From the NCBI GenBank assembly GCA_964452525.1, contig CAYVLZ010000004.1:32543-96542 (forward strand): DNA of 64,000 nt, written 5' to 3'. Source of the stretch: Candidatus Woesearchaeota archaeon. Its GTDB lineage: Archaea > Nanobdellota > Nanobdellia > SCGC-AAA011-G17 > CAYFGV01. Under the pieces are notes generated by a model. The model was not told where the DNA came from and made no database searches. It saw only the letters and a program-made list of their open reading frames with translations. Of this stretch, positions 4,381 through 64,000 are shown one piece after another. Both the position numbers and the translations under genes were made by a program. Position 1 is the stretch's first letter. Every line of letters begins with the position of its first letter.

Positions 4381-4518
4381 GATTCTTAGAAAGAGTTTAC
4401 ATTGCCCAAAGAACTCTTTTGATATAAGTTTAACTAAGAGAAATCTTAAGTTTATGCCCAAGAATCTGATTTATTTTGCCCGAATAAATCTAATTCTGAA
4501 TTTTTATTAGCCCAAAAT
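4381..4518. repeat. Four to five TTTA-N(1-4)-GCCC motifs, several in stem-loops
   Basis: GCCC at 4404, 4456, 4478, 4510; stems AAAGAGTT/AACTCTTT and GATTTATT/AATAAATC. Confidence 0.5.
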
Positions 4519-4621
4519 GTATCTTTCTATTAGTAAATATCTATATAAATATTATTGATATTCGACCTATAGTTTCTATAATATAAATTTTATTTAATCT
4601 TATTTTAGAGAAAGAGAAAAT

Positions 4622-41730: not shown

Positions 41731-41824
41731 GGGCCCGTAGCCTAGCCTGGATAAGGCGTCTGAACAAGAGTTCCGCCAAAGCCTTCTAAGCTGAAGATCG
41801 TGGGTTCAAATCCCATCGGGCCCA
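41731..41824 (+). tRNA. tRNA-Arg(UCU) with 19-nt intron at 28/29 (41761-41779)
   Basis: Removing the intron restores stem TCAGC/GCTGA around CTTCTAA; GGCG/CGCC central helix. Confidence 0.9.
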
Positions 41825-41869: not shown

Positions 41870-41975
41870 GCGTCCGTGGCCAAATCTGGTAAGGCAACCG
41901 ATTCTCTAAGAGAAGTTGAACCTGCAGAACCAGATTAGAAAGCGGTGATTGGGGGTTCAAATCCCCCCGGGCGCT
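41870..41975 (+). tRNA. tRNA-Cys(GCA) with two introns: 30/31 (41901-41920) and 37/38 (41928-41940)
   Basis: Spliced form has stem ACCGC/GCGGT, loop CTGCAGA, short variable loop and U73. Confidence 0.85.
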
Positions 41976-53970: not shown

Positions 53971-54426
53971 TTATATCTCCATGAAATCAGAATAAACACC
54001 TTCTTTTAATGAATATATTTTGAAAAGTTCTCTTTTTGGACCAGGCATTCCTGGAGATCCAGAAGGCATTTCTGGCAAGGATATTCCGTCTATGTCAGGT
54101 TTTTCGCTTAGGAGTTTATTAATGGCTTCAATAGGAACATGGCCTTCTACAAAGTAACCTTCGATAATGGAAGTGTGACAACTTTGCATGTTATAAGGAA
54201 TTTGATAATCTTTTTTGATCTCATTCATACCGGTATTTATAGATTCTACTTCAAAACCATTTTTTTTCAAGTATGGAATATATTTAACACAACACCCACA
54301 ATTTGGAGATTTGTACATAAGTACTTTTATATCGGATGGGTCTTGAGATCTTGATTGGCTAGCTAATAAGAATCCTGGGATTAATAAAGCAATAAAAATT
54401 AAAGAAAATAAAGTTATTTTCTTCAT
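53971..54426 (-). CDS. DUF411/CopG-like metal-binding protein
   Basis: YKSPNCGCC, SCHT, EGHVP, MPSGSPGM. Confidence 0.9.
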   Translation of the reverse strand: MKKITLFSLIFIALLIPGFLLASQSRSQDPSDIKVLMYKSPNCGCCVKYIPYLKKNGFEVESINTGMNEIKKDYQIPYNMQSCHTSIIEGYFVEGHVPIEAINKLLSEKPDIDGISLPEMPSGSPGMPGPKRELFKIYSLKEGVYSDFMEI

Positions 54427-54427
54427 A

Positions 54428-54625
54428 TCAACATCCCCCTACCATTCCACCATACCCTGGATTTGAACTAGTGCTTCCACCACCAGAACTTGTTTTAGTT
54501 GGTGAGGCTCCTGCTGTGTTTCCTTCTTCAACATTTTCCCTTAAATCACTAAGTTGGAAAGCCTGCACAGTTGAAACAATTACAAGAGTTACTAAAACTA
54601 TCAATAGTATTACTTCTTTTTTCAT
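54428..54625 (-). CDS. Small membrane-anchored protein ending GGMVGGC
   Basis: TM, Ser/Gly linker, terminal motif shared with 54920-55588. Confidence 0.75.
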   Translation of the reverse strand: MKKEVILLIVLVTLVIVSTVQAFQLSDLRENVEEGNTAGASPTKTSSGGGSTSSNPGYGGMVGGC

Positions 54626-54626
54626 T

Positions 54627-54926
54627 TTAATGCATGCCTCCCATCATATTTCTATGCATCCTTTCATGATGACTTTCCATGTTTTCATGCATATTACTCA
54701 TATGACACATATCTTCCATACCTTCACAGGCTTCTACTTCCATACCGCAGTAATCGCATATTCCGTCTTCATCTAGGTCCATATGCTCTTCATCTTCCAT
54801 CATGTAGTTGTCATCAGTAACGTAATCACTATGGCCGCTAACTAAAGTTGACCAAGCTATAGTCAATACTAGCAATCCGATTCCCAATCCCAATAATAAT
54901 GTATTTTTATTTTCCACTTTTAACAA
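54627..54926 (-). CDS. His/Met-rich membrane-anchored protein
   Basis: TM, CDYC, MHENMESHHERMH. Confidence 0.75.
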   Translation of the reverse strand: MLKVENKNTLLLGLGIGLLVLTIAWSTLVSGHSDYVTDDNYMMEDEEHMDLDEDGICDYCGMEVEACEGMEDMCHMSNMHENMESHHERMHRNMMGGMH

Positions 54927-55588
54927 CCTCCTACCATTCCTCCTCCAGCAGTTCCCTTTTCAATTCCCCTGTATTGGTTTGAAGCTAGAGAAATGTAATT
55001 AACATCTATTCCATTTTCTTGTAAGATCCTGGCTTTAGCTGTTAATTGTCCTGGGAAGAATAGTGTTTTCCACTTTCCTAGTTCTTCTAGGATTTGTTCG
55101 TCTGTAAATTCGTCTCCATGGTTTTGTATTAAGTATTTAGCCAAGCCCCTCATAGCATAACTATGTGCACATCCGCAAGCAGGCTCTCCGTTACTGAATA
55201 TTATTGCATTTGCTCCGCAGCAATATTCGCATGAAATGCTTCCTGCAACTCTAATATATCTTTCTAAATCCTCTCCAGTCAAAGTCATTGTTCTATCGTA
55301 TTCTGATAAAGTCTCTATAGTTTGATCGGCAAGTACTGGGTCACTAGGTGATACGTCATCGAAACTAATTCCTAGTTCTTGTCCATAGCTTTCAGGAACG
55401 CCTGTTGGAATAACATTAGCTTCTAAAGTTACTGAATCGTCACTATAAGCAGTTACTAAACCTCCCCCATTTGCGCTGGATATTTGATATTGATTGTATA
55501 GCACTATAACTGCTAGAGCGATTACTAATATCATGTTTAATCTGTTTATGTTAAATTTTTGTTTCTTTTCTGATTTTATTTCTTCCAT
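54920..55588 (-). CDS. Cys-motif membrane-anchored protein ending GGMVGGC
   Basis: CEYCCG, CGCAH. Confidence 0.8.
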   Translation of the reverse strand: MEEIKSEKKQKFNINRLNMILVIALAVIVLYNQYQISSANGGGLVTAYSDDSVTLEANVIPTGVPESYGQELGISFDDVSPSDPVLADQTIETLSEYDRTMTLTGEDLERYIRVAGSISCEYCCGANAIIFSNGEPACGCAHSYAMRGLAKYLIQNHGDEFTDEQILEELGKWKTLFFPGQLTAKARILQENGIDVNYISLASNQYRGIEKGTAGGGMVGGC

Positions 55589-61433: not shown

Positions 61434-62542
61434 TTATAAATATTTTAGATATCTATTTATCTCAGTACTAGAAAATTGATCAGGAAACTTTTCTTCTATT
61501 TGTTTTGTTAAATCTATTCTAAACTTATAAGTATTGGCATGCTTCATATAAGCAAAGGTTCCTTGTGCGCTATCGTAGATTTTATCATAAGTGATCCTAT
61601 TCTCTGAATGCAAGAAATAAAACTTTTTTAATCTGTTTTGAATATTCTTTCTATTGAATTTCTTTAATAACTTATAATGATAAAATACCCTAAAACCAAC
61701 AAAGTTAATTGGTTTATTCAATGGGATTATCTTAGATTTATCTGGATGTAGTTTTATCTTCAGCTCTTTTATCAAGAATTGATTGATTTCTTCTTTCCAT
61801 ATCTGTAGTTGTTCTTTAGAGTGATGAAGGATTACAAAATCATCTACATATCTTATATAATATTTAGCCTTCAATTTATGTTTCACAAATTTATCTAATT
61901 CATTTAAGTAGATATTAGCAAAGAACTGGGATGTTAAATTTCCTAGAGGCATTCCTTTTTTATTACTATCTTCATTTAGGCGGTTGTGCAAAATTTTTTT
62001 TACCAACCATATAGTTTTATTGCACTTTATTTTCTTTTTTATGGCTTTTATTAAAATCACATGATTAATTTCCTCAAAATAATGTTTTATATCAGCTTTT
62101 AATACATAACCTTTAACTTGATTATTATTAAACCAACCATTAATTTTGCCATTTCTGCTTACTTTTTTTTAAATTGATCAAACCTTTGTAAGGCAGATAA
62201 GGTTCCTTTACCTTTCCTGTTTGCATAAGAGTCATGGATAAAAGACTTTTCAAGAATAGGTTCTATTGTGTTGCATAATGCATGATGTACAATTCTGTCT
62301 TTGAAATCGGATTTGCTTATTTTCCTTGTTTTAGGATCTCTGATGATAAATGTTTCTAGCGGTTTTGGTTTGTAAGAATGTAATAGTAGTTCTGTTCTTA
62401 GTTTTGAAATATTATCTTCTAAATCCCTTTCAAATTCTTTTACATAATTTTTCTTTGTTTTTCCTTTTCTTGCTTTTTTATAAGCTAAATACAGATTTTC
62501 CTCTGAGCATATTCTAAGATATAGATAATTATAAGTTTTCAT
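61434..62542 (-). CDS. DGR reverse transcriptase, split by a -1 frameshift at 62162-62170
   Basis: KDRIVHHAL and HDSYANRKGKG; -1 frame continues VSRNG..GYVLKADIKHYF, GMPLGNLTSQ, YIRYVDDF. Confidence 0.93.
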
Positions 62543-62565: not shown

Positions 62566-62652
62566 CTATTCGACCATTCGAGTTAGAGTTATCCAAGTTG
62601 TTCCAGTTGGAGTTGAGATTCAAGTTCCTGTTGAGGTTCAGCCTAGAAAGGC
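62566..62652 (-). ncRNA. DGR template repeat (TR)
   Basis: 87 nt, 28 adenines, 11 AAY codons, immediately upstream of the RT ATG. Confidence 0.95.
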
Positions 62653-62804
62653 TTTTTCGTAGCTTGTTAATTGAAAGTAAATCACCACCACTTCATCTTT
62701 CTCATAAAGATACTAAATGTTGTAGTTGAATTTTATTATTAACAAACTTGTAGCCTAGCCTTTTGGGCCAGGATAAAAAATAAAGAGATAATAGTTTTTA
62801 TACT

Positions 62805-63599
62805 TTACTGCTCTTTTTTAGGCGCAGTGGCTTCGCCACTTAAAACAACTACCCGACCATCCGAGTCAGAGTTACCCAAGTCGTTCCAGCCGGAGCCGAG
62901 ATCCAAGCCCCTGCCGAGGTCCAGCCTAGAAAGGCCAGAATCTCTTGTATAGAAAGTTCTTGAACCTTTGTTCTTATCTAGATTTGTTGGCAAACCCATT
63001 TCATCAACGTTATTGAATCTGTAACCATTCCATTTATTATTTAATCTATCGTCATGATGTACTGTAAAATTATCACTAGGAACAACTAATAAACCATAAC
63101 CTTCTTTTGATTCATCTAATTTTAAATCAAAACCGTATATTAAAGCTGGTTCTCTTTCTAATCTTGATAAATCCACACCTTCTTGTTCTGCTAAGAATCT
63201 AGCTAAAGGATCATTTTTTGAATTATAAGAATCTGTAGTGCCTCTTAGAACTAAAGCTTGAGAATCAATATAATATTTTCCTCTTACCATTTCAAGAACT
63301 TCTGGATTGCTTAAATCAGCTGGCAAGGGAGTTCTAGGATTGCCTTGAACATTTCCCTGTCTTAATAATTGATTTATTAAAACAGCATCAAAGAAATTTG
63401 ATCCAGTAACAACGCCATCTTGCAATTGTAATCTTAAATTAGGATTTCCATTATAAGTAGAATCTCTTCCTTGTTGGTATGCGTCATAAATTGATTGTCC
63501 AAACCTTCCATTTAAAAAAGAGGGAGATTTAACTAAATTATCTGGAACATTTTCTGTAACTACAAAATCTGATAAATCTCTTGATATTTTAATAGCCAT
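62805..63599 (-). CDS. DGR target protein 1 (probable C-type-lectin-like fold)
   Basis: C-terminal VR ending GRVV; the fold is inferred from known DGR targets. Confidence 0.9.
   Translation of the reverse strand: MAIKISRDLSDFVVTENVPDNLVKSPSFLNGRFGQSIYDAYQQGRDSTYNGNPNLRLQLQDGVVTGSNFFDAVLINQLLRQGNVQGNPRTPLPADLSNPEVLEMVRGKYYIDSQALVLRGTTDSYNSKNDPLARFLAEQEGVDLSRLEREPALIYGFDLKLDESKEGYGLLVVPSDNFTVHHDDRLNNKWNGYRFNNVDEMGLPTNLDKNKGSRTFYTRDSGLSRLDLGRGLDLGSGWNDLGNSDSDGRVVVLSGEATAPKKEQ
62826..62840 (-). other. DGR homing hairpin AGTGGC-GAA-GCCACT
   Basis: 6-bp stem with GAA triloop 8 nt downstream of VR1. Confidence 0.8.
62849..62935 (-). repeat. Variable repeat VR1
   Basis: 16 mismatches to TR, all A-to-G. 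Confidence 0.96.
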
Positions 63600-63601
63600 T
63601 T

Positions 63602-64000
63602 TTATTTATCTCCTAGCATTATATCTCTTGCAGCTTTTAATGCTTTTTGTTTTTTCGAGTTTAATTCTTCAAATTCTGTATTATACATTAATTCAATTTC
63701 GTGTTCTAAATTGTCACCAGCGGTTGCGCTGCGAACAGCAACTACCCGACCACTCGAGTTAGAGCCATCCAAGTCGTCCCAGCCGGAGTAGAGATCCAAG
63801 CCCCCGTTGAGGTCCAGCCTAGAAAGGCCAGAATCTCTTGTATAGAAAGTTCTTGAACCATTAGTGTCAAATATAGGCAATCCATTTTCATCAGTATCAG
63901 AAAATCTTTTGCCATTATTTCTATTATCTAATTTCACCGAGTAAATTAATTCGGCATCTTCTTTTAACTTAAATGATAAGCCATGCGGGCTTTCTTGATC
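63602..64000 (-). CDS. DGR target protein 2 (5' end beyond window)
   Basis: Frame is open to 64000; paralog of target 1 (RTFYTRDSGLSRL). Confidence 0.9.
   Translation of the reverse strand, partial: DQESPHGLSFKLKEDAELIYSVKLDNRNNGKRFSDTDENGLPIFDTNGSRTFYTRDSGLSRLDLNGGLDLYSGWDDLDGSNSSGRVVAVRSATAGDNLEHEIELMYNTEFEELNSKKQKALKAARDIMLGDK
63742..63828 (-). repeat. Variable repeat VR2
   Basis: 15 mismatches to TR: 14 A-to-G and 1 A-to-T. Confidence 0.96.

What the first reader, a model, noticed from the sequence alone, without database searches (positions are those of the whole stretch)
62566..63828. Near-exclusive A-to-G mutagenesis: a DGR writing in an N/D/S/G alphabet
Seen: VR1 has 16/16 and VR2 14/15 substitutions A-to-G; counting the 9 shared ones once, 21 of 22. 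AAY codons therefore yield almost only Asn, Asp, Ser or Gly (one Tyr). Known: model DGRs change A to any base. Inference: a transition-restricted RT, adenosine deamination of the TR RNA before reverse transcription, or strong selection for small polar residues. The synonymous CGA-to-CGG change leans toward a mechanistic bias but may be an IMH difference.
Basis: partly seen in the sequence, partly recalled or inferred. Interest (0 to 1): 0.85.

Follow-up and report, generated by a model that had tools for sequence, protein, structure and literature searches.

The report
Archaeal DGR with strong A-to-G skew
This is an ordinary diversity-generating retroelement of a tiny DPANN-type archaeon, and its almost pure A-to-G pattern is the upper end of a bias shared by its whole family of elements, not a new way of mutating.

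Summary
All 31 TR/VR mismatches lie at template adenines: 30 are A-to-G and 1 is A-to-T.

Two A-to-G changes in each VR are not mutagenesis. They are the fixed 3' boundary that tells VR (..GGGT) from TR (..GAAT). It recurs in the related pairs and is published for Nanoarchaeota DGRs. That leaves 19 of 20 distinct events.

Among 66 TR/VR pairs from related RTs the spectrum is G 603, T 247, C 27. The nearest relatives give 160 of 211 G, and 7 of 66 related VRs are at least 90% G. The window sits in the upper tail: beta-binomial P 0.05, binomial against nearest relatives P 0.03.

The closest relative, L002, has a TR of the same lineage and an intact RT. It writes 21 G and 7 T.

G>T>C is already published for DGRs.

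A transition-only RT or RNA editing is therefore not needed.

The RT here is split by a frameshift in an A8 run.

Side finding: in 22 of 74 related RT lineages the gene is out of frame exactly at a poly-G, poly-C or (GA)n tract.

The parts
63602..64000 (-). 3' part of target gene 2. The gene runs off the window; the full frame in contig C4 has a 302-codon open segment. It is a paralogue of target 1 and VR2 lies near its C-terminus.
   Evidence: ORF list; continuation read from the laid genome; no Pfam family.
63742..63828 (-). VR2: 15 differences from TR, 14 A>G and 1 A>T (AAC>TAC, Tyr). Two of the A>G (63746, 63745) belong to the fixed IMH-type boundary.
63718..63731 (-). Short inverted repeat just 3' of VR2: 5-bp stem with a 4-nt loop CAAC. 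It is not the GRA-loop form.
   Evidence: DNA fold, -5.4 kcal/mol, z -0.54
62805..63599 (-). Target gene 1 (264 aa), with VR1 at the C-terminus. It belongs to a small family of 14 proteins without a Pfam or NCBIfam name.
62849..62935 (-). VR1: 16 differences from TR, all A>G. Two of them (62853, 62852) belong to the fixed IMH-type boundary.
62826..62840 (-). Hairpin AGTGGC-GAA-GCCACT just 3' of VR1, inside the target gene. This is the GRA-triloop hairpin type described for Nanoarchaeota DGRs.
   Evidence: DNA fold, -5.9 kcal/mol, z -1.79; Paul 2015 passage
62654..62772 (-). RT-16 RNA motif (Rfam RF03019), abutting the 5' end of TR.
   Evidence: 89.4 bits against a gathering score of 50. The same motif directly 5' of TR was found in 16 of 18 related loci searched and in 0 of 2 distant-RT loci.
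62566..62652 (-). TR (template repeat), 87 nt with 28 A. It holds 11 AAY codons in the VR frame and ends in the IMH*-type ..TCGAATAG.
62159..62542 (-). RT gene, N-terminal part: ATG at 62542, ending ..FDQFKKK then TAA at 62161-62159.
   Evidence: NCBIfam group II RT model positions 2-117, below cut-off
62162..62170 (-). A8 run (T8 on the + strand, 62163-62170) followed by G. The zero frame reads AAA AAA AAG TAA. Moving back one base gives ..FKKKVSRNGKINGW, which matches relatives' FKRKVSRNGKINGW. Compared with relatives, one base is missing.
   Evidence: Logan contigs of two runs carry the same T8 (X2 record 11 at 62015-62236 and X1 record 3 at 62157-62526, 0 differences each).
61434..62162 (-). 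RT gene, C-terminal part in the -1 frame. It carries LKADIKHYF, GMPLGNLTSQ and YVDD with no further stop.
   Evidence: Pfam RVT_1 E 6.1e-15; (69-74% identity to the intact L002 RT in both halves)

Best explanation
This is a typical Avd-less DGR of a small (755 kb, 32% GC) DPANN-type archaeon. The cassette on the minus strand is: two paralogous target genes with C-terminal VRs, then the RT-16 RNA, then the TR, then the RT.

The TR transcript is copied by the RT, which misreads only adenines, and the cDNA replaces the VRs. In this RT clade the enzyme puts C opposite template A far more often than A, and almost never G. The VRs of the clade therefore show about 70% A>G, 28% A>T and 3% A>C.

Two A>G in each VR are not mutagenesis. 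They are the fixed IMH (VR ..GGGT) versus IMH* (TR ..GAAT) boundary. The remaining 19 of 20 A>G events are the upper tail of the clade's distribution, explained by sampling and perhaps some selection for D/S/G/N on this surface.

The RT gene carries a one-base frameshift in an A8 run, so the element is now off or nearly off and the VRs are probably frozen.

Shown here: the anatomy, the counts and the clade spectrum. Inferred: that the spectrum is a property of the RT rather than of selection, and that the element is currently inactive.
For: Counts.

Fixed boundary: the AAT/GGT pair at the TR/VR 3' end recurs in the 68 related pairs listed, either inside or just past the aligned block. Paul 2015 (passages read) report IMH TGGGGT against IMH* TGGAAT and GRA-loop hairpins in Nanoarchaeota DGRs. 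VR1 has such a hairpin.

Clade spectrum: 66 related pairs give G 603, T 247, C 27. Nearest relatives (>=63% identity, 14 pairs) give 160 of 211 G. 7 of 66 VRs are at least 90% G, for example L104 20 of 21 and L017 14 of 15.

Tail probabilities for 19 of 20: 0.006 (pooled binomial), 0.03 (nearest relatives), 0.05 (beta-binomial fitted to the 66).

Same TR lineage, intact RT: L002 gives 8 of 13 and 13 of 15 G.

VRs of one lineage vary widely, for example L016 6 of 14, L101 2 of 6 and L108 11 of 12.

The G share is similar at AAC position 1 and 2 (0.73, 0.73), AAT position 1 and 2 (0.67, 0.58) and other positions 1 and 2 (0.64, 0.76), despite very different amino-acid outcomes.

A>C is 27 of 877 events in the clade against 35 of 149 in the distant-RT outgroup, Fisher P 1e-15.

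Close relatives are active: L056 and L057 differ at 15 positions in 4537 nt, all inside the VR; L103 and L104 differ at 11 in 1900 nt, all inside the VR.

Literature.

RT frameshift.
Against: Under a single pooled proportion the window is nominally unusual (26 of 27 summed over both VRs, P 0.0005). The two VRs are not independent of each other in selection.

Within-lineage similarity of the G share is weakly suggested (permutation P 0.064), so some heritable difference between elements is not excluded.

The test that would best separate mutation from selection, fourfold-degenerate TR adenines, is underpowered. Only 10 changed sites were found in the clade (G4 T6 C0), and 5 of them come from one short-contig locus whose frame is doubtful.

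All spectra are read from assembled consensus VRs after selection, not from cDNA.

Some near-duplicate VRs were counted separately (for example L001 and L053). The 68 pairs fall into 48 TR lineages.
Confidence: 0.72

Rival explanations
1. This particular RT is intrinsically more transition-restricted than its relatives. Its true A>G share would be 90% or more, so the element really writes an N/D/S/G alphabet.
For: 19 of 20 events against 76% in the nearest relatives, P 0.03. Both VRs are high. The G share is heterogeneous among related VRs (chi-square P 4e-7) and weakly similar within lineages (P 0.064). The RT is only 69-74% identical to the nearest intact relative.
Against: VR2 has an A>T. 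7 of 66 related VRs are equally skewed. VRs served by one and the same RT lineage range from 2 of 6 to 11 of 12 G, so a per-VR share is a poor readout of the enzyme. There is no correlation between G share and RT identity to the window (Spearman rho 0.16, P 0.20). The beta-binomial tail is 0.05.
Confidence: 0.12
2. Selection on the two paralogous binding surfaces removed variants with aromatic or hydrophobic residues (Y, I, F, V from A>T). Only D/S/G/N variants were left from an ordinary clade-type spectrum.
For: A>T makes Y, I, F and V, while A>G makes D, S and G. Both VRs belong to paralogues that may see similar ligands. The deficit is only about 5 expected T events (hand arithmetic from the clade frequencies). 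With the RT out of frame, the VRs seen are fixed variants rather than a fresh draw (inference).
Against: Homologues of the target (54-69% identical) carry Y, V, I, C and L at the VR positions (alignment A1). The G share in the clade does not depend on codon position. VRs next to out-of-frame RTs are not more G-rich than those next to in-frame RTs (181 of 250 against 407 of 591, P 0.32).
Confidence: 0.12
3. Adenosines of the TR RNA are deaminated to inosine before reverse transcription, so a faithful RT writes G.
For: It would give pure A>G (reasoning only; no call supports it).
Against: Deamination cannot give the A>T in VR2 or the 28% A>T in 66 related VRs that share the RT-16/TR/RT architecture. 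No deaminase is seen among the ORFs flanking the cassette (inspection only, no dedicated search). The adenine specificity is what the DGR RT itself produces in the model system.
Confidence: 0.02
4. It is not mutagenesis at all: three decaying paralogous repeats, with the non-coding copy drifting to A under AT pressure.
For: The genome is 32% GC.
Against: AT pressure would also turn C into T, yet 0 of the 59 non-A TR positions (22 C among them) differ in either VR. The repeat sits in a complete DGR cassette with a DGR-type RT, the RT-16 RNA, an IMH/IMH*-type boundary and a hairpin.
Confidence: 0.01

Closest known systems
DUSEL4 Nanoarchaeota DGRs (Paul et al. 2015, Nat Commun, PMC4372165; passages read)
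   Same: Archaeal host. VR at the C-terminus of the target. IMH TGGGGT against IMH* TGGAAT (here TCGGGT against TCGAAT). A GRA-triloop hairpin inside the target gene 3' of the VR (VR1: GAA loop). Several targets per TR.
   Different: No small Avd-like ORF lies between the target and the RT here, and there is no PF05635 match in the 92.6%-complete genome. The RT is frameshifted. The VR2 hairpin has a CAAC loop. The substitution spectrum was not found in the passages I read.
L002, DGR on record JBDRML010000029.1 (MAG titled Candidatus Woesearchaeota)
   Same: TR of the same lineage. RT 69-74% identical. Two VRs. RT-16 RNA 5' of TR (51.3 bits). Target 69% identical (P0122, on a contig of the same length, 112262).
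   Different: The RT is intact (378 aa, one frame). Its VRs show 8 of 13 and 13 of 15 A>G, with 7 A>T.
Bordetella phage BPP-1 DGR (model system; Handa 2020 PMC7826257 and PLoS Genet 2026 PMC12875486; passages and one section read)
   Same: Adenine-specific misincorporation by the RT, AAY-rich TR, IMH/IMH*, hairpin after the VR. In E. coli, C misincorporation (giving A>G) predominates at 59.3%.
   Different: BPP-1 needs Avd, and its TR-to-RT spacer holds the RT-10 motif. Here the RT-16 RNA lies 5' of the TR and the RT starts 24 nt after it. bRT makes many A>C changes in the NAC context (26.8% G misincorporation), whereas this clade shows 2% A>C at AAC position 2. In vitro, bRT prefers A over C over G.

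Membership tests
Diversity-generating retroelement (DGR) | TR/VR repeat pair whose mismatches fall almost only at TR adenines | tested here: met
   31 of 31 mismatches lie at A; 0 of 59 non-A positions differ
Diversity-generating retroelement (DGR) | Adjacent reverse transcriptase of the DGR clade (RT motifs including YxDD; the motif-4 signature ..GxxxSQ is recalled, not from a call) | tested here: met
   Pfam RVT_1 E 6.1e-15. GMPLGNLTSQ and YVDD are seen in the translation. Relatives of this RT sit next to adenine-specific TR/VR pairs (79 unique pairs found in 133 sources, window included).
Diversity-generating retroelement (DGR) | RT gene intact | tested here: not met
   The frame switches at the A8 run 62163-62170. 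The same run is present in contigs of two runs. There is no other stop in either half.
Diversity-generating retroelement (DGR) | VR at the 3' end of a protein-coding target, with TR adenines at codon positions 1 and 2 | tested here: met
   VR1 ends 44 nt before the stop of ORF 62805-63599. 11 AAY codons per VR.
Diversity-generating retroelement (DGR) | IMH in VR against IMH* in TR, and an inverted repeat 3' of the VR | tested here: met
   ..CGGGTAG against ..CGAATAG. VR1 has a GAA-loop hairpin; VR2 has a weaker 5-bp stem. The motif is as published.
Diversity-generating retroelement (DGR) | Accessory gene avd (BPP-1 type; not universal) | tested here: not met
   No PF05635 match in the own genome, which is 92.56% complete. 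No ORF of 50 aa or more lies between VR1 and TR. A divergent Avd would be missed.
Diversity-generating retroelement (DGR) | Variable protein with a C-type lectin (or Ig) fold | tested here: inconclusive
   AF2 model mean pLDDT 70.3, with the VR residues 229-264 below 50. Foldseek found nothing at E<=0.001. VIA-align wide gave 16 chains with Z>=2, best 2.6, of which 13 are C-type-lectin-like domains; that is far below a reliable score.
   1 A>T in VR2. 19 of 20 lies within the clade's spread (beta-binomial P 0.05). 7 of 66 related VRs are at least 90% G.
RT-16 RNA (Rfam RF03019) | Match to the covariance model above the gathering score, next to an RT gene | tested here: met
   89.4 bits against 50, model positions 1-158, at 62654-62772(-)

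The most novel reading that the evidence does not exclude
The RT of this element is a true transition-only writer, the extreme of a DPANN RT clade that puts C, sometimes A, and almost never G opposite template adenine. These archaea would then explore a deliberately small, polar alphabet (N/D/S/G). RT expression would be gated by slippage at the A8 run (A AAA AAG followed by a stop), much as relatives appear to gate theirs with poly-G, poly-C or (GA)n tracts.
Probability: 0.1. Interest if true: 0.55.

Novelty: new member of a known kind. Interest (0 to 1): 0.3.

Why it matters
For the finding as given, little changes. It adds one more DGR to a known archaeal clade, and it shows that a striking single-locus spectrum should be read against its relatives and against the fixed IMH/IMH* positions.

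Two clade-level points may be worth a specialist's time.

First, across 66 related VRs A>C is almost absent (3%, against 23% in distant-RT DGRs found by the same scan), and the G share does not depend on codon position. This suggests that these RTs have a narrower misincorporation repertoire than the Bordetella enzyme. That would cut the real sequence space of these elements well below the usual 4^n estimates.

Second, about four in ten related RT lineages carry a hypermutable simple repeat inside the RT gene, and three quarters of those are out of frame. This looks like a stochastic on/off switch for the mutator itself.

Tried and rejected
Population reads. Only Logan contigs of three runs from one study were on offer, and one of them may be the window's own source. 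They show no variant letters anywhere. VR2 is covered without difference (X1 63445-63859, X2 63552-63816). No listed piece spans VR1 from 62867-62936 (X1) or 62910-62936 (X2), and 6 pieces were not shown. VR1 and VR2 share an identical stretch longer than the assembler's word, so these breaks say nothing about VR heterogeneity.

Fourfold-degenerate TR adenines as a selection-free readout. After fixing both, only 10 changed sites remained, which is too few.

G share against RT identity to the window, against RT in-frame or out-of-frame state and within TR lineages: no significant relation (P 0.20, 0.32 and 0.064).

Stimulatory RNA structure after the A AAA AAG site: none (z -0.16). Programmed frameshifting therefore stays a bare possibility.

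Target identity: Pfam, NCBIfam and PDB sequence searches found nothing. Foldseek found nothing. VIA-align gave only Z 2.0-2.6.

Print search for simple repeats or phase variation in DGR RT genes: the paper search with 'diversity-generating retroelement', 'phase variation' and 'homopolymeric' listed no paper on it among the 15 shown. The 'frameshift' passages found in Paul 2015 and Wu 2018 did not concern RT genes. This is one search of an incomplete library. Paul et al. 2017 (Nat Microbiol) is not held and may bear on both side findings.

The per-DGR spectra in the supplements of Schillinger 2012, Wu 2018 and Handa 2020 were not seen.

Full report
WHAT IS THERE

The last 2.6 kb of the window holds a DGR on the minus strand.

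The repeat finder gives three 87-nt copies at 62566-62652, 62849-62935 and 63742-63828.

The copy at 62566-62652 lies 24 nt upstream of the ATG (62542) of a reverse-transcriptase gene. The other two copies lie near the 3' ends of two paralogous ORFs. These are 62805-63599 (264 aa) and 63602 onwards, which runs off the window.

The RT carries LKADIKHYF, GMPLGNLTSQ and YVDD and matches Pfam RVT_1 with E 6.1e-15.

Rfam's RT-16 RNA (RF03019) matches at 62654-62772(-) with 89.4 bits, ending where the TR begins.

The host genome as held has 755 kb in 18 contigs at 32% GC. The window's two tRNA matches are 94 and 106 nt long, which I read as intron-bearing archaeal tRNAs. This is an inference.

The RT's relatives are named Nanoarchaeota, Woesearchaeota, Pacearchaeota and the like wherever a source names them.

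A blastn of the TR against the whole genome finds only these two VRs.

THE OBSERVATION

On the minus strand the TR has 28 A. VR1 differs at 16 positions, all A>G. VR2 differs at 15, of which 14 are A>G and one is A>T. No non-A position differs. Nine changes are shared, giving 21 of 22 distinct events.

The 22 AAY codons of the two VRs read Gly 7, Asp 9, Asn 4, Ser 1 and Tyr 1.

The overlap between the two VRs is what independent draws would give. After the boundary sites are removed, 8 sites are changed in both VRs, against 14 x 13 / 26 = 7 expected. This is my arithmetic from the table.

THE TWO 3'-MOST CHANGES ARE NOT MUTAGENESIS

I printed the 3' ends of all 68 related TR/VR pairs. The TR reads ..G AAT(A/G) where the VR reads ..G GGT(A/G), either inside or just beyond the aligned block.

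Paul et al. 2015 describe exactly this for Nanoarchaeota DGRs: IMH TGGGGT against IMH* TGGAAT, plus a GRA-triloop hairpin inside the target gene (passages read).

The window has TCGGGT against TCGAAT. It also has an AGTGGC-GAA-GCCACT hairpin after VR1 and a weaker 5-bp stem after VR2.

Without these sites VR1 is 14 of 14 and VR2 is 12 of 13, or 19 of 20 distinct events.

HOW UNUSUAL IS 19 OF 20?

I fetched 52 loci from genome contigs and 80 of 152 matching loci from metagenome contigs, using the C-terminal RT half as query.

Each locus, and the window as a control, was scanned with a self-blastn. The filter kept ungapped repeats of at least 40 nt with at least 5 mismatches, of which at least 80% lie at A (or T) of one copy. 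This filter is blind to the substituted base. It gave 86 pairs, 79 of them unique.

One pair (L043) had no open frame and was dropped. The remaining 78 pairs divide as follows:
- 2 from the window.
- 66 from loci whose RT is at least 44% identical to the window's. I call these the clade. Where records have titles, these are DPANN archaea.
- 10 from loci L038-L050 with distant RTs (at most 43% identical to the L002 RT). Their titles are Saccharibacteria, Melainabacteria, Elusimicrobia, Cyanobacteria, Bacilli, Patescibacteria and Alphaproteobacteria, plus one MAG titled Woesearchaeota (L038).

After the boundary pair was trimmed where the alignment included it (18 of 78 pairs), the spectra are:

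| Group | G | T | C | Shares (G/T/C) |
|---|---|---|---|---|
| Clade (66 pairs) | 603 | 247 | 27 | 69 / 28 / 3% |
| Outgroup (10 pairs) | 65 | 49 | 35 | 44 / 33 / 23% |
| Window (2 pairs) | 26 | 1 | 0 | 96 / 4 / 0% |

The 14 pairs from the nearest relatives (at least 63% identity) give 160 of 211 G, or 76%.

The G share is heterogeneous among clade VRs (chi-square P 4e-7; beta-binomial mean 0.68, rho 0.08). Seven of 66 VRs are at least 90% G: L104 20 of 21, L017 14 of 15, L056 14 of 15, L020 13 of 14, L121 12 of 13, L108 11 of 12 and L012 9 of 10.

The tail probability of 19 of 20 depends on the null:
- 1.2e-8 under an even A-to-N model.
- 0.006 under the pooled clade proportion.
- 0.03 against the nearest relatives.
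- 0.05 under the beta-binomial.

The window is at the top of a continuous distribution, not outside it.

The most telling single comparison is L002. Its TR is of the same lineage and its RT is intact and 69-74% identical. Its VRs show 8 of 13 and 13 of 15 A>G, with 7 A>T.

VRs served by one RT lineage can differ greatly: L016 6 of 14, L101 2 of 6 and L108 11 of 12. The within-lineage likeness of the G share is only weakly suggested (permutation P 0.064).

MECHANISM OR SELECTION?

In the clade the G share is much the same at every class of site:
- AAC position 1: 0.73.
- AAC position 2: 0.73.
- AAT position 1: 0.67.
- AAT position 2: 0.58.
- Other first positions: 0.64.
- Other second positions: 0.76.

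At these sites the alternatives are Asp against Tyr, Ser against Ile, and so on. A>C is 0-6% at each of these first- and second-position classes. The two small third-position classes are too sparse to read.

Thr, Ala, His and Pro are almost absent from recoded AAY codons. Among 603 codons there is no His, Ala or Pro and only 2 Thr, although nothing obvious forbids them on a binding surface.

Homologues of the target carry Y, V, I, C and L at VR positions.

I therefore take the clade spectrum to be mainly a property of the RT or of its nucleotide pools: C is placed opposite A, A less often, G hardly ever. This is an inference. The selection-free test on fourfold sites is underpowered, with 10 events.

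WHAT IS ALREADY IN PRINT

A skew of this kind is published.
- Schillinger et al. 2012 found guanine most common and C rarest over 155 DGRs, with 'widely varying ratios' in single VRs (passages read).
- A 2024 MAG survey gives medians of 7 A>G, 5 A>T and 2 A>C per pair.
- The BPP-1 RT in E. coli misincorporates C 59.3%, G 26.4% and A 14.3% (section read).
- In vitro the same RT misincorporates A 22%, C 18% and G 12%.

What I did not find in the passages I read is the near-absence of A>C in the archaeal clade. In bRT the NAC context even raises it.

A-to-I editing is not needed and cannot make the clade's A>T.

Decay of the TR under AT pressure is excluded. None of the 22 C of the TR differs in either VR.

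IS THE ELEMENT ACTIVE?

The RT is in two frames. The zero frame reads ..FDQFKKK and stops at TAA. One base back it reads ..KKVSRNGKINGW.., as in the relatives' FKRKVSRNGKINGW.

The break is an A8 run (T8 on the + strand, 62163-62170). Compared with relatives, one base is missing.

Contigs built independently from two runs of one study carry the same run without difference. One of these runs may be the window's own source.

Neither half has another lesion. The site happens to be A AAA AAG followed by a stop, a classic -1 slippery pattern (recalled, not from a call). No structure follows it (z -0.16).

VR2 is identical in both runs.

I conclude that the element is off or nearly off and that its VRs are frozen.

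Close relatives are active. L056/L057 and L103/L104 are identical over 4.5 and 1.9 kb except for 15 and 11 positions, all inside the VR.

THE TARGETS

The targets belong to a family of 14 proteins without a name.

The AF2 model has mean pLDDT 70 but is poor over the VR. Foldseek finds nothing. In the wide VIA-align search, 13 of the 16 chains with Z of 2 or more are C-type-lectin-like, but the best Z is 2.6. The fold is therefore undecided.

No Avd (PF05635) is found in the 92.6%-complete genome.

NOTICED ON THE WAY

tblastn with the intact L002 RT shows that many related RT genes change frame at two recurrent loops, about residues 130-143 and 177-194 of L002. The change falls exactly at G8-11, C10-11 or (GA)5-20 tracts.

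By lineage (at least 97% DNA identity), the 74 RT lineages divide as follows:

| Frame | Tract present | Lineages |
|---|---|---|
| In frame | No | 44 |
| In frame | Yes | 7 |
| Out of frame | Yes | 22 |
| Out of frame | No | 1 (the window, with its A8) |

Sister contigs add direct evidence.
- L061 and L062 are identical over 1745 nt except for three GA units.
- The only indel between L120 and L121 is GGG in the tract.
- L020 and L111 share an identical out-of-frame RT but differ at 14 VR positions.

This is the signature of slipped-strand contingency loci, that is, a stochastic switch on the mutator. Recoding or assembly error at repeats remain alternatives.

VERDICT

The locus is a new member of a known kind. 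Its 'N/D/S/G alphabet' is the tail of a clade-wide G>T>>C spectrum, plus two fixed boundary positions.

Noticed in passing
Related loci: L008, L011, L018, L020, L022, L024, L025, L031, L035, L037, L061-L065, L070, L074, L076, L080, L088, L093, L099, L111, L116, L120, L121, L124, L126, L127, L129, L132. In the window only the A8 run at 62163-62170.: RT genes of this DGR clade often carry poly-G, poly-C (8-11) or (GA)5-20 tracts in two loops of the RT and are out of frame exactly there. Of 74 lineages, 22 are out of frame with a tract, 7 in frame with a tract, 44 in frame without one and 1 out of frame without one (the window). Sister contigs differ only in tract length (L061/L062, L120/L121). 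L020 and L111 have the same out-of-frame RT but different VRs. This looks like phase-variable switching of the mutator. I found no report of it in one literature search.
   Followed up: partly
66 related TR/VR pairs in L001-L132: A>C is almost absent in this archaeal DGR clade (27 of 877 events, 3%), against 35 of 149 (23%) in distant-RT DGRs found by the same scan. The G share is nearly the same at all codon positions. This suggests an RT that seldom puts G opposite template A, unlike the Bordetella enzyme in the NAC context.
   Followed up: partly
window 62654-62772(-); L001, L002, L004, L006, L015, L017, L020, L056, L059, L063, L067, L103, L104, L108, L121, L130: The Rfam RT-16 RNA motif, of unknown role (Weinberg 2017 speculated that some RT motifs belong to DGRs), ends directly at the 5' end of the TR. 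This holds in the window and in 16 of 18 related loci searched, and in none of 2 distant-RT loci. It is evidently the 5' part of the template RNA of this DGR clade.
   Followed up: partly
window 41731-41824 and 41870-41975 (+): Two tRNA matches of 94 and 106 nt against a 71-position model. ARAGORN calls only one of them, with an undefined anticodon. They are probably intron-bearing archaeal tRNAs.
   Followed up: no
L003 about 4515-4580, compared with L058: L003 and L058 are identical over 1650 nt except for a 19-nt tandem duplication near the 5' end of the RT gene in L003, which breaks the frame.
   Followed up: no
window 53971-55588 (-): A run of small ORFs, two of which end in ..GGMVGGC. 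One is Cys-, His- and Met-rich, next to a thioredoxin-like CxxC protein. This may be a metal-handling or secreted-peptide cluster.
   Followed up: no
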